Shown: positions 41,611-64,000 of the stretch, one piece after another | How the letters are laid out: each line of letters opens with the position of its first letter | Position numbering within the stretch: the first letter of the stretch is position 1 | Assembly (NCBI GenBank): GCA_964491475.1 | Contig: CAZBFO010000004.1 | Location: forward strand, 67,290-131,289 | Reading direction: 5' to 3' | Length of the DNA: 64,000 nucleotides | From: an uncultured Gammaproteobacteria bacterium | Lineage (GTDB): Bacteria > Patescibacteriota > Patescibacteriia > SG8-24 | Translations under genes and position numbers: made by a program | Notes under the pieces: generated by a model | What the model was told of the DNA's origin: nothing | The model's database searches: none | The model's input: the letters and a program-made list of their open reading frames with translations, nothing else

Positions 41611-42189
41611 ATGAGAAATACGACTGCACGAAAGACTCGTCCATACGTAACCATGCCCGTGGACAGCGACGAGAGCGTCTACCTGACGGGTTGCACCGAC
41701 AAGCCGGCCAACTCCAGGGACGATGAAATCCGAATCCGCTTCAAGGACGGACCGGGCTTCATGCCTTCGTGGATATTCTCGTGGATCATGCGCTTCATGC
41801 AGAGCCCGAGGACCTCCAAGACCGAGGACGACCGCGTACGGCAAATCGCCGAAAACGAGTTCGTCTTCACCAGAGGGCGGATCACGGCCCACGCCGTGAA
41901 GTACGACGACCGCATCCTGATGAAGGTCGTCGTGCGCCTGCGCGACGACGAAGGCACCTTCGAGCGCGAACTCGACAGCGTGACCTGCGCGGAAATCGAG
42001 AAACGGATTACGGACATGCGCAGTGCGCTTAACCGTTACGACGGCACCAAGGCTTTCCCCGAAATCGCCGACGACGAGAGCCGCTGGTTCGAATCCTTCG
42101 ACAAGTCAGCCTCCGGCGAACCCGCCAGCGGAAGCCGGAGCTCCGAAAACGAGATTCCGGCGTCCGCCGACGCAAGCCAGTCGGCCTAG
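41611..42189 (+). CDS. hypothetical protein
   Basis: ATG 41611 with SD AGGAGA; 192 aa; acidic S-rich tail. Confidence 0.5.
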   Translation: MRNTTARKTRPYVTMPVDSDESVYLTGCTDKPANSRDDEIRIRFKDGPGFMPSWIFSWIMRFMQSPRTSKTEDDRVRQIAENEFVFTRGRITAHAVKYDDRILMKVVVRLRDDEGTFERELDSVTCAEIEKRITDMRSALNRYDGTKAFPEIADDESRWFESFDKSASGEPASGSRSSENEIPASADASQSA

Positions 42190-42197
42190 GCCGACTG

Positions 42198-42234
42198 CCC
42201 CTGCACGTTCTTACGTGCAGGGGTTTTCTTTTTG
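42198..42234 (+). terminator. Rho-independent terminator
   Basis: CCCCTGCACGttcttaCGTGCAGGGG hairpin followed by TTTTCTTTTT. Confidence 0.55.
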
Positions 42235-42286
42235 CCTCCGCTGGGCTTTACTGAACGCGGCTCCTTATCACGGAAAGAGAGGGCAC

Positions 42287-43243
42287 ATGTCCGATCATCA
42301 CCACGCGCATGACGGTGGCGGCCATGGCGCCGGCAAGGCAGTCAGCGTCACCTTGGTCGTGAACTTGTGCATCACCGCCGCAAAGTGGTTCGCCTTCGCC
42401 GTCACGCGATCGCCTTCGCTGTTCGGCGAGGCGGCGCATTCGACGGCGGACTCCCTGAATCCTCTGGTGCTGTGGCTCGGCCATCGTCGCAGCGGCAGGC
42501 CCGCGCACGATCGTCACCCGCACGGGCACGGGCGCGAAGCGTACTTCTGGTCGCTGATCGCCGCGCAGCTGATGCTGCTGGTAGGCGCCACGCTGACCGC
42601 CTGGCATGGCATCGAGACCATCGTCGACGGCAACGTGCCGCGCATCTCCGCCGCGGCCATCATCGTCATGGCCTTTGCGGCCGTCGGCGAATCGTATTCC
42701 CTGTTCGTCGTCTGGCGGCAGATGCGGGAAGAACGGCGGCAGGGCAAGGAGGGCAAGAACCCCATCCTGCTCGCGCTGCTCGTCGAGAACGGCGCGGACG
42801 TGCTGGGCGTGCTGCTGGCCTTCGCCGGCTACGGCATCTACGCGCTCACGGGCAACGCCTTGTGGGATGCGGGATTCTCGATGGCCATCGCCGCGCTCCT
42901 GGCCGCAACCTCCCTCTTTCTCATCAACCGCAGCCGTTCGCTGATCATCGGCGAGTCCGCCGGCCCCGGAGTGGAAGCGGCGGTGAGGGACGCCATCGAA
43001 GAGCGCCCGCGCTTTGCCACCGCGGTTCGCGTCACCACCACGATGCGCGGACCGGAAGAAATCGAATGCCATGTGGAGATGCAATGGAACCACATGTGGT
43101 TCATCGTCCGAGCCGATTTCAAAGAGCCTGACAACGAGCCGCTGAAGTCCTTTCGCAGGGCCCGCAGGCAGATACGTGCGCTCCGCGCAGAGATCAAAAA
43201 GCGGGCCCCCCAGGTCACCCGCATCATCATCGAAATCTCCTGA
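42287..43243 (+). CDS. cation diffusion facilitator (CDF) family metal efflux transporter
   Basis: His-rich N-terminus MSDHHHAHDGGGHG, six TM segments with the CDF signature, C-terminal cytoplasmic domain; ATG 42287 with SD AAGAGAG; the listed 406-aa ORF adds a P/R-rich artefactual N-terminus. Confidence 0.85.
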   Translation: MSDHHHAHDGGGHGAGKAVSVTLVVNLCITAAKWFAFAVTRSPSLFGEAAHSTADSLNPLVLWLGHRRSGRPAHDRHPHGHGREAYFWSLIAAQLMLLVGATLTAWHGIETIVDGNVPRISAAAIIVMAFAAVGESYSLFVVWRQMREERRQGKEGKNPILLALLVENGADVLGVLLAFAGYGIYALTGNALWDAGFSMAIAALLAATSLFLINRSRSLIIGESAGPGVEAAVRDAIEERPRFATAVRVTTTMRGPEEIECHVEMQWNHMWFIVRADFKEPDNEPLKSFRRARRQIRALRAEIKKRAPQVTRIIIEIS

Positions 43244-43280
43244 ACCCGGCCGTATGCCGGGTTTTTATCTGCCGCAGGGC

Positions 43281-44102
43281 CTACTTCCTGGCAAACGAAC
43301 CGGCCGCCGATTTCCCGACGGAAACCAGCGCGAACAGGACGAGCATCAGCAGGACGATCGTGCCGCCGGTGGAGAGGTTGTAGGCGAACGACACGAAGAT
43401 GCCGGCGATCACCGAGGCGACCGACACGAGTTCCGCCACCATCACGGTCACGACGAAGCTCTGGCGGAGCTGCAGCGCGGTGACGACCGGAATGACGATA
43501 AGCGCGGAAATCAGCAGCACGCCGACGATGGGAATGGACAACGACACCGTCAGCGCCGACAGGATGATCAGCACCGCGTTCACCACGCCGGTCGGAATGC
43601 CGCCCACCTTGGCGGCGTCCTCGTCGAAGGCCACGAACACCAGCTCCTTGAAGAAGGCCGCGAGAGCGATCGCCACGGCGACGGCCAAGCCCACGATGAC
43701 CCGCACGTCCGCGTCGGTGACGGTGACGATGCTGCCGAAGAGATAGCTGAACAAGTTGGCGTTCAGACCCTTCGCGAGGCTCAACAGCACGATGGCCAGC
43801 GCCAAGCTGCCGGAAAGGAACAGCGCCAGGGCCGACTCGCCGTAGACGCGCTTGGTGCCGCGCAGCCGTTCGATGCCCAAAGAAGCCGCCACCGTCGTGG
43901 CGATCGCCGTGATCACCGGATCGATGCGCGCCAAGAGGCCGATGGCAATCCCGGCCAGCGAGACGTGCGCCAGGGTGTCGGCGATCAGCGAATAGCGGCG
44001 CAGCACCAGGAAAATCCCGATGAGCGGCGCTATCACGGCGACGACGATGCCTGCTTCGAGGCCGCGGACGATAAATCCGTAATGGAAAAGCGAGGACAGC
44101 AT
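43281..44102 (-). CDS. znuB: metal (Zn/Mn) ABC transporter permease
   Basis: ABC-3 family permease, about 8 TM segments; ATG 44102 overlaps the znuC stop (ATGA). Confidence 0.8.
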   Translation of the reverse strand: MLSSLFHYGFIVRGLEAGIVVAVIAPLIGIFLVLRRYSLIADTLAHVSLAGIAIGLLARIDPVITAIATTVAASLGIERLRGTKRVYGESALALFLSGSLALAIVLLSLAKGLNANLFSYLFGSIVTVTDADVRVIVGLAVAVAIALAAFFKELVFVAFDEDAAKVGGIPTGVVNAVLIILSALTVSLSIPIVGVLLISALIVIPVVTALQLRQSFVVTVMVAELVSVASVIAGIFVSFAYNLSTGGTIVLLMLVLFALVSVGKSAAGSFARK

Positions 44103-44875
44103 CAGTGGTTGTGGCGATGGTGAGTCATGAGCCGCACGTCCTGGCCGAACAGGTTGGCGGTGGCGCTTTCCTTGAGGTACTCCTGCGGCGACATGTGGCA
44201 CACCAAGGTCTTGTCGATGCAGGCGATGTGCATGACTTCCTTGGTCACCATGGCGATGTCGTGCGACACCAGCACCAAGGTCAACCCGAGCTTCTCGTTC
44301 AGCCGCTTCAACAGGGCGTAAAATTCCGCTTGGGCGCGCTCGTCAATGCCCGTGGTCGGCTCGTCCAAGAAGACGATTTCGGGCTTGCCGGCCAGCGCGC
44401 GAGCGATGAACACCCGCTGCTGCTGGCCTCCGGACAGGTCGCCGATGAGACGATTCTTGAATTCGGCCATGCCCACTTGCTCAAGCGCGCGCAGGGCAGC
44501 CTGATGATCCTGCCTGGTCATGCTCCTGAACAGGCCGCGGCGCGCGTAACGCCCCATCAGCACGACCTCGAGCACCGTCGCCGGAAAGTTGACGTCGAAG
44601 TTGGTGACCTTCTGCGGCACGTAGCCGATGCGCGACCAGTCGCGGAACTCGGTGACGTCCTGCCCGAACAGCAGCACTTTTCCGGCCGACGGCCTGATCA
44701 GGCCGAGCATGATCTTGAGCAGCGTGGTCTTGCCGGACCCGTTCGGCCCGATCACGCCCAAATAGTCGCCCTCATGGACGTCGAAGGTGATGTCGGTCAG
44801 CACCTGCTCCTTCCCATAGGAAAAGCCGATGCCCCGGACTTCCACGATGTTCTTGATCTCGCTTACATGCGGCAT
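44102..44875 (-). CDS. znuC: metal ABC transporter ATP-binding protein
   Basis: Walker A GPNGSGKTT, LSGGQQQR signature, Walker B IVFLDEPT. Confidence 0.85.
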   Translation of the reverse strand: MPHVSEIKNIVEVRGIGFSYGKEQVLTDITFDVHEGDYLGVIGPNGSGKTTLLKIMLGLIRPSAGKVLLFGQDVTEFRDWSRIGYVPQKVTNFDVNFPATVLEVVLMGRYARRGLFRSMTRQDHQAALRALEQVGMAEFKNRLIGDLSGGQQQRVFIARALAGKPEIVFLDEPTTGIDERAQAEFYALLKRLNEKLGLTLVLVSHDIAMVTKEVMHIACIDKTLVCHMSPQEYLKESATANLFGQDVRLMTHHRHNH

Positions 44876-45879
44876 TGGAGTGCGGCGCGAAGGTTCGCCA
44901 AGTTATTTCTCATGACCGAAAGATAGTCTTGTCCCTGTGCCGGCGAATCCTGCTGCAATCCCTCGATCGGATCGAGCACCGATGTCTTTGCGCCGGTTTC
45001 GGCGGCGACCGTATCGGCCAGCTTCGGGCTGACCAGGCTCTCGAAGAAGATTGTACCAACTTTGCGCTTCCTCACGAAGGCGGCAATGTCGGCAAGTTCC
45101 TTTGGCGAGGGCTCGGCGTCAGGTGACAGGCCCGCGATCGGCACCTGGTTGAGGCCGTACGCCTTGGCCAGATAGCCGAATGCGGCGTGCGACGTGACGA
45201 TGTCCTTCTTCTCGCAGGAAGACAATCCCTTGCGGTAATCGGCATCGAGCGAATCCAGGTCATTTTTCAGGACGTCGGCATTGGCGCGAAAGGCATCCGC
45301 GTCGGCGGGATCGGCCTTCAGGTATGCCGCCGCGATATGATCCACCATTTGCTTGGCCAAGACGGGACTCAACCATACGTGAGGATCCGCCACATTCTGC
45401 CCCTCCTCCATCATGTGGTCGGTCATGAGGTCCTGACCGACGTTCACCACCAACGTATTGTCCCCGTCGAGGTTCTTTGCCACGCGGCCGCCCCAGGATT
45501 CCAAGCCGCCGAGCAGGATGACCATCTTGGCATCCTCCATTTCGGCGATATCCTGTGCCGTCGGCTCATAGTCATGCGGTTCCGCGCCGGCCGGCGTCAC
45601 GTTCACTACGGAGGCGCGGTCGCCGCCGATTCGCGAGGCGAGGTAATAGAGAGGATAGAAGCTGGTGACCACGCGCACCTTGCCGCCCGCCTCGGGAGCC
45701 TCCGGGGGCCGCACCGCAGGTCGCGTCTGCCACAAAAGGAATGCGCCGACGCCCGCTGCCAAGAGCGCGGCGGCAGTCACCAACGGTTGCCGCCAGTTCG
45801 GCTCTCGACCTTTCGAATCTTTCATTTGATCTGTCATAGCCATCATGGGGGGGTTGCCAATTGCTCTCCCTTCCAGCAT
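44863..45879 (-). CDS. znuA: metal ABC transporter substrate-binding protein (ZnuA/TroA family); start uncertain
   Basis: cluster 9 SBP blocks, H/D/E-rich loop; candidate starts at ATG 45879, 45846, 45837 or 45825, none with a clear SD. Confidence 0.75.
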   Translation of the reverse strand: MLEGRAIGNPPMMAMTDQMKDSKGREPNWRQPLVTAAALLAAGVGAFLLWQTRPAVRPPEAPEAGGKVRVVTSFYPLYYLASRIGGDRASVVNVTPAGAEPHDYEPTAQDIAEMEDAKMVILLGGLESWGGRVAKNLDGDNTLVVNVGQDLMTDHMMEEGQNVADPHVWLSPVLAKQMVDHIAAAYLKADPADADAFRANADVLKNDLDSLDADYRKGLSSCEKKDIVTSHAAFGYLAKAYGLNQVPIAGLSPDAEPSPKELADIAAFVRKRKVGTIFFESLVSPKLADTVAAETGAKTSVLDPIEGLQQDSPAQGQDYLSVMRNNLANLRAALQCRM

Positions 45880-45904
45880 AATGCAACATAGTTGCGTTTG
45901 TCAA

Positions 45905-48012: not shown

Positions 48013-48148
48013 GCCGAAGCGCATCACGCCTCCCGACGTCCGTCGGGAGGCTTTTTCTTTATGCCCTTGACCGTTCAGGTTGTGTCGGTAGGTGAGCGCT
48101 GCTATCCTCAAAATAGGGTTCCTTTCACGCCTACAGGGAGTACATCCC

Positions 48149-49009
48149 ATGGCGCAAAACACTCGTCAGCTGTTCTTCGCGTTCGTCCTTCTCTGCGTTT
48201 CCCAGCTGGTGGGTTGTGGCGCCGCGGCACCGCAGGCGGCAGCGGCAGCAATGCCGGCCGCGCCCGCAAGCAACGCAGGAGAAATGGCTCGCTATCGCCT
48301 CAACAGCGACGCGACCTACCGCATCGACGTGATCTCCCCCGACGGTCACGGCCACGGTTCCGGCGTCGTGATCTCGACCGAGGGGTACATCCTCACGGTC
48401 AATCACGTCGTCGACCATCCGGGCAACCTGTCCATCATGGTCTCGGAGGGCCCTGGCCCGCCCAAGACCTACCCGCTCCGGGTCATTGCCACCGACAAGG
48501 TGCACGACCTGGCCGTGGTCAAGGTCGAGCGGCGCTTCGCGAATCCCGCGATTCTCGAGGACATCCGCAACGTGCACCCCGGCGACGAGGTGTACAACAT
48601 CGGCTACCCGTACGACTACGGCGAGATGGTCGCCCGCGGCCACGTGATGCGCCTGCACTACTCGATGCCCGAGGACGAGAACGACAAGAAGCTCCCGGCG
48701 GACCGGCGCATCTACGTGCGCGACATGATCCTCTCGGACTTCCTGGCGGGCCCCGGCACCTCCGGTTCCGGCATCTTCCTCTCGTCGAGCGGCAAGCTGG
48801 TCGGCGTGATGCGCCTGCTCATCTGGCAGGGCGGCGGATACGTCGCGATGACGACCCGAGCCCTGGTTCCCGTGAACCAGGTCGAGGACTTCCTGCGGCT
48901 GTACCGCATTCCCCACGTGACGTCGGACGGCACGGTGGCCACTTACCCGCCGCTGCCTCCGCCGGCGCCGCCGGCACCTTCCGTTCCCACGCTGCAGCCA
49001 CATAAGTGA
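48149..49009 (+). CDS. trypsin-like serine protease (S1 family, catalytic triad intact), secreted
   Basis: signal peptide and lipobox LVGCG; His in ILTVNHVV, Asp in DLAVVKV, Ser in GTSGSGIF; ATG 48149 with SD AGGGAG. Confidence 0.7.
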
Positions 49010-49083
49010 CGGCAGCCCCCGCGGTCCGCTTATCGGACCGCCTTTTTTATTCCAGACGAAAAAGAGAGCGGCGCTCGCTCTCC

Positions 49084-50094
49084 TTATTCCACCCGCCAGC
49101 CTGTCGCCGCTTCCTTGATCCGGCCCGGCACGGTGAATCCGGCGGCCTTCTTGTGTCCGCCGCCGCCGAGCATCTTGGCCGGCAGCGATACGTCCGTATC
49201 GTCCGCGCTGCGGAAACTGCCCTTCACCTTGTTGCCCGGCACTTCCTTGAGGACCAGCACCGCCTTCGTATCCAAAAACTGATTCAGGAAGTTGGAAATG
49301 CCTTCCACATGCTCCTCCTCGACGCCTTCGGCGGCGACCTCGTGCTCGAAAATGGCAGTCGAGGAAACGCCCAGCTTCTCGTCGTGCTTGAGGCGCCCCA
49401 AAACGGTGCCCCACAGGCGCAACGACATCAGCGATTTGTTGCGCATCAGCTTGTTGGCGACCTCCTGGATTTTGCCGCCGCGCTTCACCAGATCGGATGC
49501 GGCGCCCAACGAAGTCCAGGTGGTCGCAGGGTTCGAGAAGTTGCCGGTATCGGTCAGGATGCCGGTGAGCAGGCAGGTGGAGATGGCGCGGTCGATGTCG
49601 GCGCCGGCGGTCTGCAGGAAGTCGTAGACCACTTCGGCCGTGGAAGACGCCGTGACGTCGAGGATGTTGATGTCGCCGTACCGCTCGTTGGTGGCGTGAT
49701 GATCAAAGTTGATGATGAACGGACGAGGAGACATCTTCGCCACCAAATCGGCGATGCCGGCGAAGCGGAGGTCGCCCGCGTCGAACACTGCCAGCACGTC
49801 GTGCTCGGGGTTTGCGAACACCGAAGGGTCGTTCGTGTAATGCTCCGTGCCCGGCATGTAGGCATACTGCTGCGGCACCTGGTCCTGGCAGTAACCGGTC
49901 ACTGGAATCCCCTCGCGCTGGCAAAAATTGTACATGGCGGCACCGGCACCGAGGGTGTCGCCGTCCGGTTTGGGATGCGAAACCGCCAGCACGCGTTTGG
50001 CGCGGCGGATGACATCGAGGGCGTTGCGGTGGAGATAGGCGATATCCATAAACGTTGAGCAAATCAACGTACCAACGCGACGCGACGCCGTCAA
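49084..50094 (-). CDS. nrnA: DHH-family phosphoesterase NrnA-like (oligoribonuclease/pAp phosphatase)
   Basis: DHH motif block HPKPDGDTLGAGAAM, DHH plus DHHA1 architecture; start may be ATG 50049. Confidence 0.8.
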   Translation of the reverse strand: MTASRRVGTLICSTFMDIAYLHRNALDVIRRAKRVLAVSHPKPDGDTLGAGAAMYNFCQREGIPVTGYCQDQVPQQYAYMPGTEHYTNDPSVFANPEHDVLAVFDAGDLRFAGIADLVAKMSPRPFIINFDHHATNERYGDINILDVTASSTAEVVYDFLQTAGADIDRAISTCLLTGILTDTGNFSNPATTWTSLGAASDLVKRGGKIQEVANKLMRNKSLMSLRLWGTVLGRLKHDEKLGVSSTAIFEHEVAAEGVEEEHVEGISNFLNQFLDTKAVLVLKEVPGNKVKGSFRSADDTDVSLPAKMLGGGGHKKAAGFTVPGRIKEAATGWRVE

Positions 50095-50187
50095 GGCGGC
50101 GCGCCCGCGAGTTGACCGTACCGCCGGGACGCGGAATGATAGCGGCGTTCTTTGGCAACGCCATTCGCGTAGAAAAAAGAGGCTTAC

Positions 50188-50916
50188 ATGCGCACCGCGT
50201 TTTTCGCCTTGCTGCTGCCGTTCTCCTTGAGCCTGTGCGACGATTCACCCACGCCCGTCGGCTCTCCTGCACCAGTGCAGCCCAAGCCGGCCGTCGCGGC
50301 GGAAACCGTCGAAACGGTGCTGCGCGTCGACATGGGCGGCAAGTATCGCGGCCCCGGCGTCGTCGTTTCCCCCGCCGGCTACGTGATCACGGCAGTCGAA
50401 AATCTGCCGGAGTACGTCTTCTGGAAGTACAGGGTGACCGTCGGCAGCGAGCGCGTTCCGGGGACCATCGTCGCCGTGGATGAACAGCTGGGCCTGGCGC
50501 TCATCCATGCCGACCGGCCGATCCGACTGTGCGCCACCTTCACTTCGCGCATCGATTTCAAGGCCGGCGACCCCGCTGTTGCCGTCGGCTATCTCGACTT
50601 CGACGGTGAGCCGCAGCTGGTGGAGCGGAGGCAGGTGCCCGCGACGATCGTCGAGGTCCATAAGCGCGGCGAGAGCGTCGGCCGTCTCGACTTGCGCGAC
50701 ATGACCACCGTTTCTCTCGAGCACGTCGAAGGGCGGCTGCACATCCTGGGCACAGGCGTCTTCTCGTCGAACCCCGACGCCTTCATCGGCATCATCGTCG
50801 GCACTTCCGAAAAGGCGTACGGGACGAGCACGCCCACTTCGCCGCTGTTCGTCGTCCCGTCGACCTCCGTGGCGACCTTCATGCGCCGTCACGGTACGGA
50901 ACCGAAAACGCAGTAG
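50188..50916 (+). CDS. trypsin-fold protein lacking the catalytic triad (pseudoprotease), lipoprotein
   Basis: aligns to the 48149 protease, but His is replaced (ITAVENL), Asp is replaced by Gly (GLALIHA) and there is no GxSGG serine motif; lipobox LSLC. Confidence 0.55.
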   Translation: MRTAFFALLLPFSLSLCDDSPTPVGSPAPVQPKPAVAAETVETVLRVDMGGKYRGPGVVVSPAGYVITAVENLPEYVFWKYRVTVGSERVPGTIVAVDEQLGLALIHADRPIRLCATFTSRIDFKAGDPAVAVGYLDFDGEPQLVERRQVPATIVEVHKRGESVGRLDLRDMTTVSLEHVEGRLHILGTGVFSSNPDAFIGIIVGTSEKAYGTSTPTSPLFVVPSTSVATFMRRHGTEPKTQ

Positions 50917-51034
50917 TTTCCCCCGACCGCACGCCTTCGTGCGGTTTTTCCTTAATTGACTTTCGTTCCCGGCGAGCCCAAAATGAGGCCGTTCTTTCCT
51001 TTCGCGCATCATTCGCCGAAATCAGGAGGATCCC

Positions 51035-51745
51035 ATGGGTTCCGCGAAACGTTTCCGGCTCCTAGCCTTCTTGGCCATTGTCTTTTTCGCCGCGCTGGTC
51101 GGTTCGCCGACCGGGCCGTCGACGGCTGCGGCCGAAGAACCGCCACCGATCACGTCCAAGGCCGACAAGGCCACCGTGCGCATCGACGCCAACGGCAATT
51201 ACGTCGGAGTAGGCGTCGTCGTTTCTGCCAGCGGACACGTGCTCACTTCCGTACAGGCCGCGGGCAGCTGGCGCTACGCCAAGTTCACCGTCGGCGACGC
51301 ACGCCTTCCCGCAAACGTGGTGGACTTCGACGAGAGCCACGGCTTGGCGCTGCTCAAGGCGGCCGCCCCTCTCCAGAACGCGCCTGTCACCCTGGCTTCG
51401 GCCCGTGCCGCAAAGAACTCCGCGGTGATGCTGATCTGCTATCGGCAGGTGTCGAGCGAACCGCCGATGATCTCTCGTCGCAAGGACACGGGCCTAGTCA
51501 CCGACCCGTCATACGGCGGCGAATCGTCGGGGACGCTCGACCTCCGCGACCTGGAAATCGTCCGCGTGCGCGGCCAAGAACAGATGTCGCCCTACGCGTA
51601 CGCCCCCGTCATCTCCGCGAAAACCGGAGAAATCGAGGGATTCGTCATTGGCAACATGCGCCGCTACGACGTCACCGACGTGCTGGTGATGCCGGCAAGC
51701 GTCATCAGGACGTTCCTTCAGGCGCAGAAGGTGCCTCTTCCGTGA
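51035..51745 (+). CDS. trypsin-fold protein lacking the catalytic triad (pseudoprotease), secreted
   Basis: paralog of 50188-50916: VLTSVQAA replaces the His block, GLALLKA replaces the Asp block, no Ser motif; signal peptide. Confidence 0.55.
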   Translation: MGSAKRFRLLAFLAIVFFAALVGSPTGPSTAAAEEPPPITSKADKATVRIDANGNYVGVGVVVSASGHVLTSVQAAGSWRYAKFTVGDARLPANVVDFDESHGLALLKAAAPLQNAPVTLASARAAKNSAVMLICYRQVSSEPPMISRRKDTGLVTDPSYGGESSGTLDLRDLEIVRVRGQEQMSPYAYAPVISAKTGEIEGFVIGNMRRYDVTDVLVMPASVIRTFLQAQKVPLP

Positions 51746-58155: not shown

Positions 58156-58314
58156 CGTGCTGCTGTAGGAACCCGGGGTTGCTCATCCCGTCAGTTCCGC
58201 AAACTCGCGGCGTCCGACCGCATCGACCGAGACCATCTATCTCGAGACTGCATCGGACCTGCCGCATCCAAGGTGCCGAACCGGCACTTTCAATTATCTT
58301 TCATCCACTCAAGC

Positions 58315-58623
58315 ATGCTGGTCATCCGCCTCACCCGCGTCGGCAAGAAGAAGCAGCCGACCTACCGCCTCATCGTCCAGGAGAAGTCGCAGGACCCCTG
58401 GGGCAAGTCCAAGGAAATCGTCGGCAACTACAACCCCCGCACTAACCCCAAGTCGATCAGCCTCAAGGCCGATCGCATCAAGTACTGGATCGGTCTGGGG
58501 GCCCAGCCGTCCCCGTCGGTCCACAACCTCTTGGTGGACGCCAAGGTCCTGACCGCCGAAAAGCGGCCCGCCGCCTCCGGCACGGGCAAATCCGGCGCAA
58601 AGGAAGCCGCAGCCAAGGAGTAA
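58315..58623 (+). CDS. rpsP: 30S ribosomal protein S16
   Basis: MLVIRLTRVGKKKQPTYRLIV is the canonical S16 N-terminus; ATG 58315; C-terminal Ala/Lys-rich extension. Confidence 0.9.
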   Translation: MLVIRLTRVGKKKQPTYRLIVQEKSQDPWGKSKEIVGNYNPRTNPKSISLKADRIKYWIGLGAQPSPSVHNLLVDAKVLTAEKRPAASGTGKSGAKEAAAKE

Positions 58624-58640
58624 AAAACAGACATGTCAAA

Positions 58641-58668
58641 ACGCCCCCGCAACGGGGCGTTTTTGATT
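58641..58668 (+). terminator. Rho-independent terminator after rpsP
   Basis: ACGCCCCcgcaacGGGGCGT hairpin followed by TTTTGATTTT. Confidence 0.5.
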
Positions 58669-58695
58669 TTCCTGATGAAGTTATCAACGTCCGTT

Positions 58696-58724
58696 TTGAC
58701 AGCCTCCACGCTCGCTTTTATACT
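58696..58724 (+). promoter_or_regulatory. sigma70-like promoter TTGACA-N17-TATACT for the KH-domain gene
   Basis: TTGACA at 58696-58701, TATACT at 58719-58724. Confidence 0.5.
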
Positions 58725-58835
58725 AGACGCAGTTCCCGCCTCGCGGGAATCCGCGCCGAAAAGGACGCGGCTATTCATTAGAAGGATGCACCTTCTTCAC
58801 CCGGAGCGACCGGGAAAGAGCGTCACCGCCAAGAT

Positions 58836-59207
58836 ATGGCAGAACGGTTTTCCGATCAGGAATTCGTCGAATACGTCGTTAAGGGAATTGTCGGTCATCC
58901 GGAAGACGTCAAAACCGAAAGGACCATCGATGAGCGCGGAGTCCTCATCACGCTGCACATCAATCCGGAAGACATGGGCTACGTCATAGGCCGCCAAGGT
59001 CAGACCGCCCGATCCATCCGCACGCTGCTCAAGATCGTCGGCGCCAAGAACAACGCCCGCGTGAACCTCAAGATCTACGAGCCGGAAGGCAGCCGCCGCG
59101 CCCATCGTGAGCGCCAGGAAGCCGAAGGCCACCATGAGCCGGCCCACGCTGCCGCCTCGGTCAGCCGCGAGGACATCGACACCTCGGCCGTCGACCTCAC
59201 CATCTAA
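58836..59207 (+). CDS. KH-domain RNA-binding protein (YlqC/UPF0109 family)
   Basis: GxxG KH loop in YVIGRQGQTARSIRTLL; conserved neighbour of rpsP; His/Glu-rich tail. Confidence 0.8.
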   Translation: MAERFSDQEFVEYVVKGIVGHPEDVKTERTIDERGVLITLHINPEDMGYVIGRQGQTARSIRTLLKIVGAKNNARVNLKIYEPEGSRRAHRERQEAEGHHEPAHAAASVSREDIDTSAVDLTI

Positions 59208-59218
59208 GCGACCAAAAA

Positions 59219-59250
59219 GACGTCCGATTCGCCTCGGACGTTTTTGTTTG
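59219..59250 (+). terminator. Rho-independent terminator
   Basis: GACGTCCGAttcgccTCGGACGT hairpin followed by TTTTTGTTTG. Confidence 0.55.
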
Positions 59251-59336
59251 CGCCAGCACCGCAAACCCTTGATTTTTACGCGGAAACGTGTCATAACTTC
59301 ACGCAGTCCCTTCAAAGGACGGAAAAGGAACGTGCC

Positions 59337-60287
59337 ATGGCAGGCACCGCCAAAAAAGAATTCACCGGCCGAAACGACGGCTTTCAGAAGTACATCCAGC
59401 AGTGGGTTGGTCACGCGCTGCTCACGAAGGAACAGGAATACGACCTGATTCGCCGAGCGCAGGAAGAGGAACGCCAGCGCCTGGCGAACAAAAGCAAGCT
59501 GAAGCGACTCGGCAGAAAGGGCGCACGCCCGAAACGGAAGCCGAAGAAGCCCGTGGCGATGACCGCACTGGTCAATGCCAACGTGAGGCTGCTGCTCTCC
59601 ATCGCGCAGAAGTTCAACCGAGCGGGTGCGCTCCGCGGCGTCTACCTGGAAGACCTTTTTAACGTCGCCGCAATCGGCCTGAACAAGGCCGTGCTGAAGT
59701 TCGACTTCACCATGGGCTGCCGGCTCAACACCTATGCGACCTGGTGGATAAGGCAGGAACTGGCCAGGGCGCTGAACGACCTCGGCAGCACCATCCGGCT
59801 TCCCGTCTACGTGACCGAAGATCGCCGCAAGCTGCGGCGAGCGGCAAACCTCTACCAAGCCGAATTCGGACGCGAACCGGACGAAGAGGCGCTGGGCCAG
59901 ATGGTCCGCCTGCGTTCAGGCCGGGTGCAGGCCGTTTTGGACGCGCCTGCCGAGCCGTACTCGCTCGACAAACCGGCGCGAAGCCATGACGGGTCCTCCG
60001 ACATGCCCGGCACCATGCTGGACATGATGGCCGACACCGCGCACGAAGGGGAGTCCGCCGAGGACAAGGTGCTGCGTTCGGAAAAATACGCAGCGCTGAA
60101 CGCCGCTGCCGAACGGTGCCTCGACGAAAGGGCGCGCGAGATCTTGCGCTGCCGCTTCCGCGACGAGATGACGTTGGACGAGACCGCGGCCGCCATCGCC
60201 GAGCCGGGCGAAATGCCGCTCTCGCGCGAACGCATCCGGCAAATCGAAACGGCCTCGCTCGAACGGCTCCGCAAAGTCCTGCGGTAG
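59337..60287 (+). CDS. sigma-70 family RNA polymerase sigma factor (regions 2-4; no region 1.1)
   Basis: region 2 blocks (LLSIAQKF, RLNTYATWWIRQ), region 3, region 4.2 HTH (LDETAAAI...SRERIRQIE); ATG 59337 with SD GGAAAAGGAACG. Confidence 0.8.
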   Translation: MAGTAKKEFTGRNDGFQKYIQQWVGHALLTKEQEYDLIRRAQEEERQRLANKSKLKRLGRKGARPKRKPKKPVAMTALVNANVRLLLSIAQKFNRAGALRGVYLEDLFNVAAIGLNKAVLKFDFTMGCRLNTYATWWIRQELARALNDLGSTIRLPVYVTEDRRKLRRAANLYQAEFGREPDEEALGQMVRLRSGRVQAVLDAPAEPYSLDKPARSHDGSSDMPGTMLDMMADTAHEGESAEDKVLRSEKYAALNAAAERCLDERAREILRCRFRDEMTLDETAAAIAEPGEMPLSRERIRQIETASLERLRKVLR

Positions 60288-60293
60288 TCCCGC

Positions 60294-60323
60294 GCCCGTC
60301 CTTCATGGACGGGCTTTTTGTTT
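60294..60323 (+). terminator. Rho-independent terminator
   Basis: GCCCGTCCttcatGGACGGGC hairpin followed by TTTTTGTTTG. Confidence 0.5.
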
Positions 60324-60378
60324 GCCGAAGCGCTCTCGTCTGGTGGCGCCGGTGCTGTCATACTTACGAGACTCGCCT

Positions 60379-62121
60379 ATGTCAGCCCGCACCCGCCACC
60401 TGTTCGCCTTCTCCGCATGCGCCCTGCTGGCCGTCGTTTTCACTTGGCCGCTGGCAGCGCACATGAACGCCAGCTTCCCGTCAGCCGGCGTGTGGACCGC
60501 CGGCGACCCCGAAATGTTCATCTGGTGGTTCGATGTCGCCGCCAAGTCGTTGCGCGGCGCCTTGCCGACCGCTGCGTCAAAAATGCTGTTCTGGCCCAAC
60601 GGCATCAACCTGCTGGCCGGCTATGACGGCCCGCTGATGCTGGCCGTCGGCGTCCCCCTCACGCTGCTTTTCGGCAATCCCGTCCTAGCCTACGACCTGT
60701 TCATCCTGACCGCGCTTGCAGGCTCGGCGTTTGCCGCATACTTGTTGGGAATGCGGCTCACCCGTTCCTGGCCTGCGGCCATGTTGGTCGGCTTCCTCTT
60801 CGGCTTGAGTCCCTACATGCTTGTGCGTGCCGCGCAGCACCCCAACCTGCTGATGACCGGAACGCTGCCGCTGCTGCTGCTTGCCGCCTTTCGCTGGCTC
60901 GACCGACCGAAAGACAAAAGCTCTTACGCCTGGCTGGCATTGGCCGCGGCCGCAAATGCGGCATCGTCATGGTATTACGCCATCGCGGGACTCATTTTCC
61001 TGGCGATACTTTTTCTTTTCCAAGCCGACACCTGGCGAAAAAATGCGGCGCGTCTGATCGCTGCAGTTGCGGCCGTCGGCGTGGGAACAGGAATAGTCGC
61101 GCTTCCGCTGCTGTTCTCTCCCACCGGGGGAAGCGCGCCGTCCAGCGCGGCGTTCGTCGCTCGCATGGGTGCCAAGCCCATCGACTTCATCCTTCCGAAC
61201 GCGCTCACCAACGTCTTCGGCGATCTGCGCCGCGGCCTTCGCGATGACCCGCCAGCCTCCGACACGTTGCCCACGCCGAACGTGTTCGAACGGTCCTCCT
61301 ACTTCGGCATTCCGCTGCTGGTACTGGTTGCCATCTTCGCATGGCGACGGCGCACTTCAACATTGCCCGTGCCCGCTTTCTGGATTTGCGCCCTGATAAC
61401 GTTCACCTTGCTGTCCCTCGGCACCGAGGTCACCGTCCTCGGCCAACATCTCCCGATGCCCTTTGCGCTGCTGCGAGGTCTCTTTCCCTTCTCGCTGGCA
61501 CGCGTCCCAAACAGGTTCTTTGTGGGCGCCCTCCTCTGCGCGGCCGTGATGGCCGGCGACGTCGCTGCCCGATGGCTGGCGCAAAAACGCCTCCTTACCT
61601 TCGCGAATCGGGCCACGGCGGCCTGCTTCGGCATCATGTTCGTCGCAGAACGGCTCATCTTCCCCTATCCGATCTTCACCCAAGAAGTCTCCTCTTTCTT
61701 CGTAAGCATGGCCGCAGACCGGGACTTTTATGCCGTTGCCGACCTTCCCATCCCCTACACGGAGTTCAGCGAGTTCGACTACTACCAGATCCATCATGGC
61801 AAACCGACGACCGGCGGCGCCTACTATTACCCCGCGTACACGCCCGAGGTGCTTTCCTTCATCCGCAAGAATCCGCTGCTGGCCGCTTCGCTGTGCACGC
61901 CGCGCTTGCCCCACCCGAATCCCATCGACCTTGCTCGCGAAGTCTGGCCCGCCTTCCGCGGACAGAACGTCCGCTACGTCATCATTCACAACCTCCTGCT
62001 CCACGACATCCCGGAATGCGCCGGCATCCAGCAGACGCTCCGCGAGACGTTCCGGGAGCTCACGCCGTACTTTGCCGATGGCGACATCACCGTCTACCGT
62101 GTCCCCGCCCCAAACCGGTAG
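60379..62121 (+). CDS. large polytopic membrane protein, possibly GT-C-type glycosyltransferase-like
   Basis: about 12 TM segments in the N-terminal 400 aa, then a soluble C-terminal domain; ATG 60379 (MSARTRHLFAF). Confidence 0.5.
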   Translation: MSARTRHLFAFSACALLAVVFTWPLAAHMNASFPSAGVWTAGDPEMFIWWFDVAAKSLRGALPTAASKMLFWPNGINLLAGYDGPLMLAVGVPLTLLFGNPVLAYDLFILTALAGSAFAAYLLGMRLTRSWPAAMLVGFLFGLSPYMLVRAAQHPNLLMTGTLPLLLLAAFRWLDRPKDKSSYAWLALAAAANAASSWYYAIAGLIFLAILFLFQADTWRKNAARLIAAVAAVGVGTGIVALPLLFSPTGGSAPSSAAFVARMGAKPIDFILPNALTNVFGDLRRGLRDDPPASDTLPTPNVFERSSYFGIPLLVLVAIFAWRRRTSTLPVPAFWICALITFTLLSLGTEVTVLGQHLPMPFALLRGLFPFSLARVPNRFFVGALLCAAVMAGDVAARWLAQKRLLTFANRATAACFGIMFVAERLIFPYPIFTQEVSSFFVSMAADRDFYAVADLPIPYTEFSEFDYYQIHHGKPTTGGAYYYPAYTPEVLSFIRKNPLLAASLCTPRLPHPNPIDLAREVWPAFRGQNVRYVIIHNLLLHDIPECAGIQQTLRETFRELTPYFADGDITVYRVPAPNR

Positions 62122-62166
62122 CCAGCTTGTCAGGACGCCTCTTTCACGCTAGAGTAGCCAGTCACT

Positions 62167-62844
62167 ATGCGATTCGACGTACTGACCATCTTCCCCGCGA
62201 TGTTCGAGAGCTATTTCTCGGAATCCATCATCAAGCGCGCTCGCGAGCGCGGCCTTTTGGACATCCGCGTGCACGATCTCCGCGCCTGGGCCGAAAACAA
62301 GCACAACCGCGTCGACGACAAGCCCTACGGCGGCGGTCCGGGCATGGTCATGCAGGTCGGACCGTTCTATCGGGCGCTCAAGGCCCTCAAAGCGCTCACG
62401 CCGACCACGCGCAAGAAGATCCGAATCATCCTCATGTCCGCCAAGGGCAAGCGCTTCACGCACAAGGACGCCGTCCGCCTGGCAAAATACTCGCGCATCG
62501 TGCTGCTGTGCGGCCGCTACGAGGGCGTCGACGAGCGCGTGGCCGAACATTTGGCTGACGAGGAAATCTCCATCGGCGATTTCGTGCTGACCGGCGGCGA
62601 ACTGCCGGCCATGACGCTCATCGATTCGGTTTCGCGCCAGGTCAAAGGTGTCCTCGGCAAAAGCGAATCGCTGGCGCGCGAATCGCACGCCGAACCGGGC
62701 CTGACCGAACATCCCCAATACACCCGTCCTGAAGTCTTCGAGCCAAAGAAAGGCCAACGCTGGTCAGTCCCCGACGTTCTGGTGGGCGGCGACCACGCCA
62801 AAATCGAGGCTTGGCGCAAAAAGCAGCAAAAGCCGGCCAAGTAG
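62167..62844 (+). CDS. trmD: tRNA (guanine37-N1)-methyltransferase TrmD
   Basis: MRFDVLTIFPAMFESYF N-terminus, SPOUT knot motifs (YGGGPGMVM, LLCGRYEGVDERV), 225 aa. Confidence 0.9.
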   Translation: MRFDVLTIFPAMFESYFSESIIKRARERGLLDIRVHDLRAWAENKHNRVDDKPYGGGPGMVMQVGPFYRALKALKALTPTTRKKIRIILMSAKGKRFTHKDAVRLAKYSRIVLLCGRYEGVDERVAEHLADEEISIGDFVLTGGELPAMTLIDSVSRQVKGVLGKSESLARESHAEPGLTEHPQYTRPEVFEPKKGQRWSVPDVLVGGDHAKIEAWRKKQQKPAK

Positions 62845-62945
62845 GCCCGATATTGCGCGCAGGAAGGGAGAGGTATAGGATTGCTATTGCCATCTCCAAG
62901 GGTGGCGGCCGTCACAGTCCTTTCCCCGGGAAACAGGAGACAGCG

Positions 62946-63149
62946 ATGTCGTTCTTCAGCAAAATCGCAGCGTGCACCGCGCTGGCGTTCGCCGTCATGG
63001 CGATTTCACCGGCAACCGCCGAGGCAAGCCACAAGGGCAAGACGCACTCGGCCCAACAGGCCAAGAAGCATGGCAAGAAGCATGCCAAGCCTCGGCACCA
63101 CAAGAAGGGCCATCACAAGGCCCACAAGAAGGGCGCGCACAAGAAGTAA
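62946..63149 (+). CDS. secreted His/Lys-rich peptide (about 40-residue mature form)
   Basis: ATG 62946 with SD CAGGAGA; signal peptide MSFFSKIAACTALAFAVMAISPATAEA; mature SHKGKTHSAQQAKKHGKKHAKPRHHKKGHHKAHKKGAHKK; terminator follows. Confidence 0.55.
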   Translation: MSFFSKIAACTALAFAVMAISPATAEASHKGKTHSAQQAKKHGKKHAKPRHHKKGHHKAHKKGAHKK

Positions 63150-63170
63150 GCGCCAGTCACGTCACCGCCC

Positions 63171-63200
63171 GACCCGCCTGATCAAGGCAGGGTCTTTTTT
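63171..63200 (+). terminator. Rho-independent terminator (imperfect stem)
   Basis: GACCCgCC...GGcaGGGTC stem with internal loop, followed by TTTTTTT. Confidence 0.4.
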
Positions 63201-63292
63201 TACGCCCGGTCGCCACGTTGACAGGCCGGCATTTTTTTGCTTAGCTTTGAAGGTGTTCGACGCCACACGGCCTCACACGAGGAGCTCATTTC

Positions 63293-64000
63293 ATGGACGA
63301 CAACCGGCTCGAATTCATACAGCAACCGTGGGGATTCCGCAGAGACAAAACGCAGCCCGATTGGCTGCATTTCCCGAGGTTACGCTTGCTGCTGGGCTGG
63401 GGGCCCGGCATTCGGGAGTACTTCAGGAAGTCATCTCTGTCTGGTTTACGCACCATCGTCATTCCGGAGAGCGCGGACATCTCCCGTCCGCCCCTCGTCT
63501 GGCTTATGACCTGGTATGACGAGCACTTCCTCTTCAACACCCGCCTGCGTGAGAACGCCCCGCCGCTTGCCGTCTTTAGCGCCGGCAAGCAGAACCAGTG
63601 TTTCCGCCTCGGCGACGAAGGACTGCACAAGACCGAGCTGGACTCGACCATCAAAGGTCTGTTCCCAGTGAGCACATCTCCGGAGTTCGGAGTACGTCAC
63701 GCCGTCGACGATGACGGATCGCGGCTGGTGCTGGTTCAACGGTCCAAGCGGCTTAAGGCCAAATACCAGGAACGGATGAAACAGTTCGGCCTGGTGTACG
63801 CGCCCGGAACGGGCAAACGGGACAACAGCCCCGATGACCAACGCACGCCCAGCGAGCAGCACTTCGTCGAGTTCATCAGCGCAATCAAGCACGAGTACAT
63901 CGAGAAACGTGCCCGCGAACTCGAAAAGCACCCCGGCCTGCGACCGCCCAACTACGAGGAGCGTCGCAAGGCGCATATCCGATCTCGGCTCGGCGAGATG
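63293..64000 (+). CDS. hypothetical protein, 3' end beyond the window
   Basis: ATG 63293 with SD ACGAGGAGC; open in this frame to the window end; promoter-like TTGACA-N17-TTAGCT at 63218-63246; absent from the ORF track only because no stop occurs in-window. Confidence 0.5.
   Translation, partial: MDDNRLEFIQQPWGFRRDKTQPDWLHFPRLRLLLGWGPGIREYFRKSSLSGLRTIVIPESADISRPPLVWLMTWYDEHFLFNTRLRENAPPLAVFSAGKQNQCFRLGDEGLHKTELDSTIKGLFPVSTSPEFGVRHAVDDDGSRLVLVQRSKRLKAKYQERMKQFGLVYAPGTGKRDNSPDDQRTPSEQHFVEFISAIKHEYIEKRARELEKHPGLRPPNYEERRKAHIRSRLGEM

What the first reader, a model, noticed from the sequence alone, without database searches (positions are those of the whole stretch)
62946..63149. Secreted 40-residue His/Lys-rich peptide downstream of trmD
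The gene has a strong SD, a classic signal peptide and its own terminator. The mature product, SHKGKTHSAQQAKKHGKKHAKPRHHKKGHHKAHKKGAHKK, is about 30% His and 40% Lys. Such composition is typical of metal-binding peptides (Hpn-like, for Ni or Zn) or cationic antimicrobial or histatin-like peptides, but here it is exported.
Basis: seen in the sequence. Interest (0 to 1): 0.55.

Follow-up and report, generated by a model that had tools for sequence, protein, structure and literature searches.

The report
Exported histidine-rich basic micro-peptide gene
A real, conserved small gene in an uncultured soil or groundwater bacterium (probably Patescibacteria) encodes a 27-residue export signal followed by a roughly 40-residue disordered tail made almost entirely of histidine and basic residues; it belongs to no described family and probably binds metal ions or protons outside the cell.

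Summary
ORF 62946..63149 (+) encodes 67 aa: a 27-aa Sec-type signal peptide ending AEA, then a 40-aa tail. The tail is 25% His and 35% Lys (not 30/40%), with no acidic and no hydrophobic residue. The gene has AGGAG 6 nt before the ATG and a hairpin plus U7 terminator.

It is a real gene. I found seven variants in related metagenomic contigs. Indels are all multiples of three. dN/dS is 0.13-0.33 in this frame and at least 1 in the other two. Signal length (27), Pro-6 and Ala-3/Glu-2/Ala-1 are invariant.

His pairs keep their positions across the family, while Lys is swapped for Arg or Ala (His 25-49%). This points to a function centred on histidine.

No Pfam, NCBIfam, PDB or Rfam match was found, and a profile search of 1.84 billion proteins found only its own cluster. 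It is not a detectable Asr, Hpn, SilE or ABZJ_00068 member.

My best reading is an exported, disordered His-rich polycation that binds transition metals or protons outside the cytoplasm. An Asr-like acid protectant and a histatin-like effector remain open. No genomic context supports any specific role. Moderate interest: a new, lineage-restricted variant of a known kind.

The parts
62853..62881 (+). Candidate sigma-70-type promoter: -35 TTGCGC (62853-62858), 17-nt spacer, -10 TAGGAT (62876-62881)
   Evidence: TTGCG(C/T) and GGTATAnnAT are conserved in the window, L092, L004, L006 and L007, even where the upstream gene differs. The consensus scan did not call it because the -35 matches only 3 of 6. 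Inferred, not shown.
62888..62907 (+). 5' leader hairpin 1: UGCCAUC / GGUGGCG
   Evidence: RNAalifold and pair counts on 5 leaders: 97% of cells paired and 2 pairs with compensatory double changes. It overlaps the DNA palindrome GTGGCGGCCGTCAC at 62902-62915.
62919..62937 (+). 5' leader hairpin 2: CCUUUCC / GGGA..AGG, covering the first 3 nt of the Shine-Dalgarno
   Evidence: 91% of cells paired and 1 compensatory pair. A possible translational control element; suggestive only, from 5 sequences.
62935..62939 (+). Shine-Dalgarno AGGAG, 6 nt before the ATG
   Evidence: CAGGAG is invariant in the 4 window-like homologous leaders and GGAG is invariant in all five.
62946..63026 (+). Signal peptide codons (27 aa, MSFFSKIAACTALAFAVMAISPATAEA)
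   Evidence: Length 27, P-6, A-3, E-2 and A-1 are invariant in all family members although the hydrophobic cores diverge. AF2 predicts a helix at residues 3-20.
63027..63149 (+). Mature 40-aa His/Lys-rich peptide SHKGK...AHKK plus the stop codon
   Evidence: dN/dS for this part is 0.09-0.25. AF2 gives coil with pLDDT 55-66.
63171..63201 (+). Intrinsic terminator: 9-bp bulged G+C-rich hairpin plus U7
   Evidence: Equivalent hairpin-plus-T-run terminators with different sequences follow the gene in L004, L006, L007, L009 and L092.

Best explanation
This is a genuine, independently transcribed micro-gene. Its 67-aa precursor is targeted to the Sec translocon by a classical 27-residue signal peptide and cut by signal peptidase I after Ala-Glu-Ala. 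That releases a roughly 4.5-kDa, 40-residue, intrinsically disordered peptide outside the cytoplasmic membrane. The host's nearest relatives are mostly labelled Patescibacteria, so there is probably no outer membrane and the destination is the wall zone or the medium. The working part is the array of histidines, mostly in HH pairs spaced by 2-3 small or basic residues. I propose that it reversibly binds divalent transition metals (Zn, Ni, Cu) and protons at the cell surface, acting as a metal buffer or capture peptide whose charge rises from about +15 at pH 7-8 to +24 at pH 5. The flanking Lys/Arg would keep it soluble, unfolded and attached to anionic envelope polymers. Shown: the gene is real, conserved and under purifying selection; it has its own terminator; its signal-peptide anatomy is invariant; its composition is as stated. 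Inferred: the promoter, which rests on sequence conservation alone; export and cleavage; disorder; metal or proton binding as the physiological role.
For: Coding and conservation: seven distinct variants (P0001-3, L007, P0010/L009/L088, P0011/L091, L092). All indels are multiples of 3. dN/dS is 0.13-0.33 in this frame against 1.0-9.4 in the other two. Export: in all members the N-terminal segment is exactly 27 aa with P-6 and A-E-A at -3..-1, although the hydrophobic cores differ (IAACTALAFAVMAI versus LLVLPAALAAALLL). A plain membrane anchor would not need this. There is no twin-arginine motif and no conserved lipobox Cys. His-centred function: His is 25-49% of the mature part, and H46, H52, H57 and H60 are invariant alignment columns. 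K+R varies from 14% to 37%, and Lys is fully replaced by Arg in P0010/P0011 and largely by Ala in L007 (HHAAHHAAHHAAHH). Predicted charge at pH 5 varies less (+18 to +26) than charge at pH 8 (+4.6 to +14.6). Disorder: AF2 gives only the signal helix, then coil at pLDDT 55-66, and the tail has no hydrophobic residue. Precedents for exported disordered metal-binding or charge-regulated proteins: SilE (PMC5008109) and Asr (PMC10746267, citing Ren et al. 2022). Lys can cross SecY deprotonated (PMC9110029), and His is largely neutral at cytoplasmic pH (general chemistry).
Against: There is no experimental or expression data. No metal gene is adjacent. The Zn cluster (CDF exporter, znuABC) lies 17-20 kb away, and its operator-like palindrome has no copy near the peptide gene. 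No Cys, Met, Asp or Glu is available to assist coordination, and dense positive charge lowers cation affinity. K/R density just after the cleavage site (2 in the first 5 residues, 6 in the first 18 in the window copy) is of the kind known to slow Sec export (own knowledge of E. coli studies; PMC9110029 for Arg). The P0010/P0011 variants use Arg, the residue hardest to export. The distribution is patchy: close relatives L008, L093, L095 and L096 lack the gene, so it is dispensable. Signal peptide prediction rests on manual rules; SignalP was not available.
Confidence: 0.4

Rival explanations
1. Asr-like acid-stress protectant. The exported disordered polycation gains charge as its His residues protonate at low pH, and it shields envelope proteins or polymers from acid-induced aggregation, as the E. 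coli periplasmic chaperone Asr does.
For: Same architecture as Asr: a Sec signal plus a disordered K/H/A/Q-rich mature part with no hydrophobic residues. There is local likeness (AKKHGKKHAKP here, AKKHAKKHSHQQPAKP in Asr). The summed H+K+R content (53-66%) and the charge at pH 5 are more conserved than the charge at neutral pH. Asr is described as a net-charge-regulated disordered chaperone (PMC10746267, citing Ren 2022).
Against: No detectable homology: the Pfam Asr model was not among hits at E<=10, and BLASTP gave E=5.5, in the signal peptide only. Asr has 10% His and a 14-residue neutral spacer after the cleavage site. This family has 25-49% His. Nothing is known about acid induction here.
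Confidence: 0.2
2. Secreted cationic effector aimed at other cells, such as a histatin-like antimicrobial or a factor an episymbiont uses on its host's envelope.
For: The composition resembles histatin 5 (His/Lys/Arg-rich, metal-binding; own knowledge). The likely Patescibacteria affiliation implies a cell-surface-dependent lifestyle. The gene is patchy and fast-evolving in the mature part, as effector genes often are. The P0002 variant starts with SGH, an ATCUN-type N-terminus.
Against: There are no hydrophobic residues, so no amphipathic membrane-active helix can form. No immunity gene or dedicated transporter is adjacent. N-terminal Cu/Ni motifs are not conserved across members. The low dN/dS of 0.09-0.25 in the mature part indicates purifying selection, not an arms race.
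Confidence: 0.12
3. Envelope-bound polycation that neutralises or cross-links anionic polymers (wall teichoic-acid-like polymers, extracellular DNA, polyphosphate), with no specific role for metals.
For: Net charge is +5 to +16 at pH 7 and there are no acidic residues in any member. The Gly/Pro/Ala spacers suit an extended chain.
Against: It does not explain why His, rather than Lys/Arg, is the conserved residue. The L007 variant has only about +6 at pH 7.
Confidence: 0.1
4. Uncleaved N-out/C-in micro-membrane protein. The hydrophobic segment is a membrane anchor and the basic tail stays in the cytoplasm (positive-inside rule), binding nucleic acid, ribosomes or the inner membrane face.
For: Charge asymmetry is extreme: +1 or +2 before the hydrophobic segment against +5 to +15 after it. 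Positive charges close to a cleavage site impede Sec export (own knowledge; PMC9110029 for Arg).
Against: The hydrophobic core is only about 14 residues and is followed by an invariant Pro-x-x-Ala-Glu-Ala at a fixed distance in all members. This is the signature of a signal peptidase I site and is not needed for an anchor. The first 12 mature residues carry only 2 K/R in every member.
Confidence: 0.08
5. Not a functional peptide. The ORF would be a His/Lys-codon-rich regulatory leader (his-operon-style attenuator for the downstream gene), or a chance ORF.
For: A small ORF rich in His codons ends 22 nt before a terminator and lies upstream of another gene.
Against: Amino-acid-level purifying selection acts over the whole ORF, including the signal peptide. 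Lys codons are replaced by Arg or Ala codons in relatives. The downstream gene has its own conserved TTGACA promoter after the terminator. That gene occurs without the peptide in L008 and L093-L096, and is separated from the peptide by a 538-aa gene in L092.
Confidence: 0.02

Closest known systems
Asr, acid shock protein / periplasmic chaperone of E. coli (Pfam PF06392)
   Same: A Sec signal peptide followed by a low-complexity, disordered, hydrophobic-free, Lys/His/Ala/Gln-rich mature part. The charge is pH-titratable. It is a standalone small gene. Both contain short AKKHxKKH strings.
   Different: No detectable sequence homology. Asr has 10% His against 25-49% here. Its mature part is 81 aa against 36-43 aa. 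Asr has a neutral Thr/Pro/Ala spacer after the cleavage site and a few Glu. It comes from diderm Enterobacteria, whereas this host is probably Patescibacteria.
Hpn and Hpn-2 of Helicobacter pylori (His-rich nickel storage proteins)
   Same: Tiny proteins (7-8 kDa) with 25-47% His, lineage-restricted and without orthologues elsewhere (PMC3856676).
   Different: Hpn and Hpn-2 are cytoplasmic, with no signal peptide. They contain Cys pairs or poly-Gln and some acidic residues. This family is exported, strongly basic, and has no Cys or Gln runs.
SilE / PcoE periplasmic metal 'molecular sponges'
   Same: Exported, intrinsically disordered small proteins that use His-containing motifs to soak up metal ions outside the cytoplasm (PMC5008109).
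   Different: SilE uses His plus Met motifs, is about 143 aa (own knowledge), folds on Ag+ binding, and sits in a metal-resistance operon. The peptide here has no Met in its mature part and no metal operon context.
Histatin 5 (human salivary peptide)
   Same: A short, secreted, disordered, His/Lys/Arg-rich peptide that binds Cu, Zn and Ni and is not a classical amphipathic pore-former (own knowledge).
   Different: Eukaryotic and unrelated in sequence. It contains Tyr/Phe and Asp/Glu and a defined ATCUN N-terminus, which is not conserved in this family.
ABZJ_00068 family colistin stress protein (NCBIfam NF051864)
   Same: The best, though weak, library hit: a 58-position model of a small protein induced in colistin-resistant Acinetobacter baumannii (PMC5319971).
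   Different: The score is 16.7 bits against a cut-off of 40 (E=0.006). Much of the aligned stretch (query residues 9-52) is the signal peptide. It is not a member.

Membership tests
Sec/SPase I (type I) signal peptide | Positively charged n-region, 7-15-residue hydrophobic h-region, and a polar c-region with small residues at -3 and -1 | tested here: met
   K6; a 14-residue core with mean KD 2.3-2.8; P-6; A-3, E-2 and A-1 invariant in all members. Rules were applied by hand because SignalP was not available.
Sec/SPase I (type I) signal peptide | Low positive charge in the early mature region | tested here: inconclusive
   2 K/R in the first 5 residues and 2-6 in the first 18. This is higher than typical, but Lys and His can cross SecY uncharged (PMC9110029).
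Asr (PF06392) | Match to the Asr repeat profile | tested here: not met
   PF06392 was not among the hits at E<=10 for any of 6 members. BLASTP against E. coli Asr gave E=5.5.
Asr (PF06392) | Signal peptide plus disordered Lys/His/Ala-rich periplasmic mature protein | tested here: met
   Composition and AF2 coil. This is analogy only.
Asr (PF06392) | Strong induction by acid | not testable with these tools
   No expression data are available for this uncultured organism.
Hpn / Hpn-2 | Cytoplasmic location (no signal peptide) | tested here: not met
   A conserved 27-aa signal peptide is present.
Hpn / Hpn-2 | Very high His content in a protein under 10 kDa | tested here: met
   25-49% His in the mature part, against 47% and 25% for Hpn and Hpn-2 (PMC3856676).
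Hpn / Hpn-2 | Ni binding and NikR-dependent induction | not testable with these tools
   Needs biochemistry or expression data.
SilE / PcoE | His- and Met-containing metal-binding motifs | tested here: not met
   There is no Met in any mature sequence. The importance of His and Met motifs is from PMC5008109.
SilE / PcoE | Encoded within a sil/pco metal-resistance operon | tested here: not met
   The neighbours are trmD, a sigma factor, a DUF6311 membrane protein and an orphan 292-aa gene.
ABZJ_00068 family (NF051864) | Score at or above the curated cut-off of 40 bits | tested here: not met
   16.7 bits, E=0.006.
Lipoprotein (SPase II) | Conserved lipobox Cys at the end of the h-region | tested here: not met
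   Cys10 of the window copy lies too near the N-terminus and is Leu or Phe in P0002 and P0003.
Known cis-regulatory RNA (Rfam) in the leader | Match to an Rfam covariance model | tested here: not met
   There is no relevant hit at E<=10 in 62780-63300, and none at the gathering threshold in the window apart from one tRNA.

The most novel reading that the evidence does not exclude
A lineage-specific secreted histidine-rich peptide of a Patescibacteria-like (candidate phyla radiation) bacterium that works at the symbiont-host or cell-environment interface. It could be a ribosomally made 'metallophore' that captures Zn or Ni for a minimal cell whose ZnuA lacks a His-rich loop. Alternatively it could be a pH- or metal-switched polycation that docks onto or perturbs the host envelope. 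Its synthesis may be controlled by the conserved SD-occluding hairpin in its leader.
Probability: 0.15. Interest if true: 0.7.

Novelty: new variant of a known kind. Interest (0 to 1): 0.42.

Why it matters
Exported, disordered, low-complexity micro-proteins are routinely missed or dismissed by annotation. Four of the loci searched here had no gene call for this ORF in the protein collections. This case shows a small family under clear purifying selection, in a poorly understood and probably episymbiotic lineage, whose only conserved chemistry is an array of histidines outside the cell. If it binds metals, it would be a gene-encoded extracellular metal buffer or scavenger in a minimal genome. 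If it is Asr-like, it would show that charge-regulated disordered envelope protectants arose independently outside the Enterobacteria. Either way the peptide is short enough to synthesise and test directly.

Tried and rejected
1. Family assignment. Pfam and NCBIfam on the peptide and on all six members, and a PDB sequence profile, gave only sub-threshold, composition-driven hits (ABZJ_00068, DUF4148, CbtA, ZrgA, RcnA loop).

2. Asr homology. I fetched E. coli asr from NC_000913.3 and ran BLASTP: no similarity.

3. Wider relatives.
- A profile search of 1.84 billion representatives found only the family's own cluster.
- A word-indexed search found 3, then 5 clusters.
- A metagenome scan with the peptide alignment found nothing confirmed, probably because of low-complexity filtering.
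- A genome scan with the downstream protein found nothing.

4. Known riboswitch or sRNA in the leader: no Rfam hit.

5. Regulatory link to zinc. The znuA operator-like palindrome has no copy near the peptide gene. The leader palindrome GTGRCGGCCGTCAC has no significant second copy. Shared 11-mers with the znuA start region turned out to be an SD-like stretch, not an operator.

6. Functional hint from the linked downstream 292-aa gene. It has no Pfam, NCBIfam or PDB sequence hit. The AF2 model is mediocre (pLDDT 66) and Foldseek against PDB gave nothing at E<=0.001. Linkage is also not obligatory.

7. Longer ORF from TTG 62811 (112 aa, overlapping trmD). Rejected because the homologues L003, L004 and L006 start at the ATG and the SD is conserved.

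8. Lipoprotein, Tat substrate and attenuator-leader readings: rejected on sequence grounds, as set out under the rival explanations and membership tests.

Full report
**What is there.** The + strand carries an ATG at 62946 and a TAA ending at 63149. It encodes the 67-aa protein MSFFSKIAACTALAFAVMAISPATAEASHKGKTHSAQQAKKHGKKHAKPRHHKKGHHKAHKKGAHKK. The gene follows trmD (62167..62844; PF01746, E=2.9e-56). AGGAG lies 6 nt before the ATG. Downstream, a bulged 9-bp G+C-rich hairpin (63171-63194) followed by seven U forms an intrinsic terminator. The consensus scan missed it because of the bulge.

With cleavage after Ala27 the product is 40 residues. It has 10 His (25%), 14 Lys (35%), 1 Arg, 5 Ala, 4 Gly, 2 Ser, 2 Gln, 1 Thr and 1 Pro. 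It has no acidic residue and no hydrophobic residue.

**It is a real gene.**
- A word-indexed search of 5.8 billion proteins returned the window's own protein plus two variants of 88-89% identity from other metagenomes.
- Looking downstream of trmD in related contigs, and searching again with an alignment, added four more variants: L007 (MSQLAKIV...AHHAAHHAAHHAAHHKGK), P0010 (in L009 and L088), P0011 (in L091) and L092.
- In the DNA alignment, every indel inside the ORF is a multiple of three.
- Nei-Gojobori dN/dS among the three close variants is 0.13-0.33 in the annotated frame (0.09-0.25 for the mature part). It is 1.0-9.4 in the two other frames.
- Each homologue has its own hairpin plus T-run terminator, of different sequence.
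- The window-like copies (L092, L004, L006) and L007 share a conserved upstream block, TTGCG(C/T)-17 nt-TAnnAT, which I read as the promoter; L009 does not.
- That block is retained in L003/L004, where the upstream gene is the C-terminus of a Clp ATPase and not trmD.
- In L092 a 538-aa gene on the other strand separates the peptide gene from its usual downstream neighbour.
- The unit is therefore autonomous, and 'downstream of trmD' is usual but not essential.

**Export.** All seven precursors have an N-terminal segment of exactly 27 residues. Each has one or two basic residues, a 14-residue hydrophobic core, Pro at -6 and Ala-Glu-Ala at -3 to -1. The cores themselves diverge, while the P-x-x-A-E-A and its distance from the start do not. 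That is the pattern expected of a signal peptidase I substrate and not of a membrane anchor. There is no twin-arginine motif. The Cys of the window copy is not conserved, so it is not a lipoprotein. AlphaFold2 predicts a helix for residues 3-20 and low-confidence coil for the rest.

The main caveat is the density of positive charge after the cleavage site, which is known to slow Sec transport. However, every member keeps only two K/R in its first 12 mature residues. Lys can cross SecY deprotonated (PMC9110029), and His is mostly neutral at cytoplasmic pH. I put export and cleavage at about 0.75.

**What is conserved in the mature part.**
- Length is 36-44 residues (44 in L092). No member has an acidic or hydrophobic residue.
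- His ranges from 25% to 49%, and several His columns are invariant.
- Lys+Arg ranges from 14% to 37%. Lys is completely replaced by Arg in P0010 and P0011, and largely by Ala in L007.
- Predicted charge at pH 5 (+18 to +26) varies less than charge at pH 8 (+4.6 to +14.6).
- The selected chemistry is therefore that of the imidazoles, meaning metal or proton binding, with basic or small spacers around them.

**Who carries it.**
- The window is 62% G+C.
- Its TrmD is closest (60-88% identity) to MAGs mostly labelled Patescibacteria or Parcubacteria, from groundwater and soil. A few labels are discordant (Binatia, Gammaproteobacteria). Beyond that, identity drops to about 50% across many phyla.
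- A homologue of the neighbouring orphan gene is also labelled Patescibacteria.
- Window gene content fits this: a type IV pilus ATPase, FtsH, VanW with a peptidoglycan-binding domain, many genes with no Pfam hit, and no outer-membrane marker. It does not prove the affiliation.
- The gene is patchy. Relatives L008, L093, L094, L095 and L096 have trmD directly followed by the orphan gene. L087 and L089 carry a different 156-aa membrane ORF in the same slot.

**Comparison with known families.**
- Nothing reaches a curated threshold in Pfam, NCBIfam or PDB sequence space.
- An exhaustive HMMER profile search of 1.84 billion representatives found only the family's own cluster.
- E. coli Asr, fetched from NC_000913.3, has the same architecture and shares short AKKHxKKH strings. 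It shows no significant similarity and has far less His.
- Hpn and Hpn-2 are as His-rich but cytoplasmic (PMC3856676).
- SilE is an exported disordered metal sponge, but it uses His/Met motifs and sits in a resistance operon (PMC5008109).
- The best library hit, the ABZJ_00068 family, scores 16.7 bits against a cut-off of 40.
- The peptide is thus a functional analogue of these proteins, not a member of any of them.

**Mechanism.** I commit to an exported, cleaved, disordered His-rich polycation that binds transition metals and protons outside the cytoplasm (confidence 0.4).

The rivals are:
- an Asr-like acid protectant (0.2);
- a histatin-like or host-directed effector (0.12);
- a generic binder of anionic polymers (0.1);
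- an uncleaved N-out/C-in membrane micro-protein (0.08);
- a regulatory leader or non-functional ORF (0.02).

Context gives no help in choosing. The Zn cluster of the window (a CDF exporter with a His-rich N-terminus, and znuABC) is 17-20 kb away and shares no operator with the peptide gene. The linked 292-aa gene is an orphan with no fold match.

**Leader.** The roughly 58-nt leader contains two hairpins that are kept in five homologous leaders, with three compensatory pair changes. In total 94% of cells are paired, and 3 of 500 shuffles reach the observed covariation. The second hairpin covers the first three bases of the SD, so translation may be regulated. No Rfam family matches. With five sequences this is suggestive only.

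**Verdict.** This is a new, narrowly distributed family of a known general kind (exported low-complexity His-rich or basic peptides), with its function open. Interest is moderate.

Noticed in passing
window 62888-62937 (also L092 913-962, L004, L006, L007 leaders): The 5' leader of the peptide gene has two conserved hairpins with compensatory changes. The second hairpin occludes part of the SD. The DNA palindrome GTGGCGGCCGTCAC (62902-62915) shares one arm with hairpin 1, so alternative pairings are possible. No Rfam match.
   Followed up: partly
window 63293-64000 (full length in L001 4119-4997): An orphan 292-aa protein family with the invariant motif HFPRLxLLLGWGPG usually follows trmD or the peptide gene. 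It has its own TTGACA promoter. Only 10 homologues were found, with no Pfam, NCBIfam or PDB hit. The AF2 model has pLDDT 66 and no Foldseek match.
   Followed up: yes
window 42023-45900: A zinc-homeostasis cluster. It contains a CDF exporter whose likely true start (about 42287) gives MSDHHHAHDGGGHG, and znuB, znuC and znuA on the minus strand. The znuA promoter (TTGACA-18-TATGCT) carries a palindrome (CGCAACTATGTTGCA on the - strand) at 45882-45896, probably a Zur-type operator. ZnuA lacks a His-rich loop.
   Followed up: partly
L087 2304-2774 and L089 2378-2848: In two more distant relatives, the slot between trmD and the orphan gene holds a different small gene (a 156-aa ORF with one transmembrane segment) instead of the His-rich peptide. 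The slot seems to collect small envelope proteins.
   Followed up: no
window 58273-62844: The order is rpsP, KH-domain khpA, a sigma-70 family gene, a DUF6311/PTPS-related membrane protein, then trmD. There is no rimM between khpA and trmD and no rplS after trmD. Relatives L093, L095 and L096 have two sigma genes in tandem here.
   Followed up: no
window 48092-51745: Three trypsin-like (Trypsin_2) peptidase genes lie close together (48092-49009, 50188-50916, 51035-51745).
   Followed up: no
window 62811-63149: The mechanical ORF list extends the peptide ORF upstream to a TTG at 62811 (112 aa), overlapping the end of trmD. Homologues show that this extension is not conserved.
   Followed up: yes
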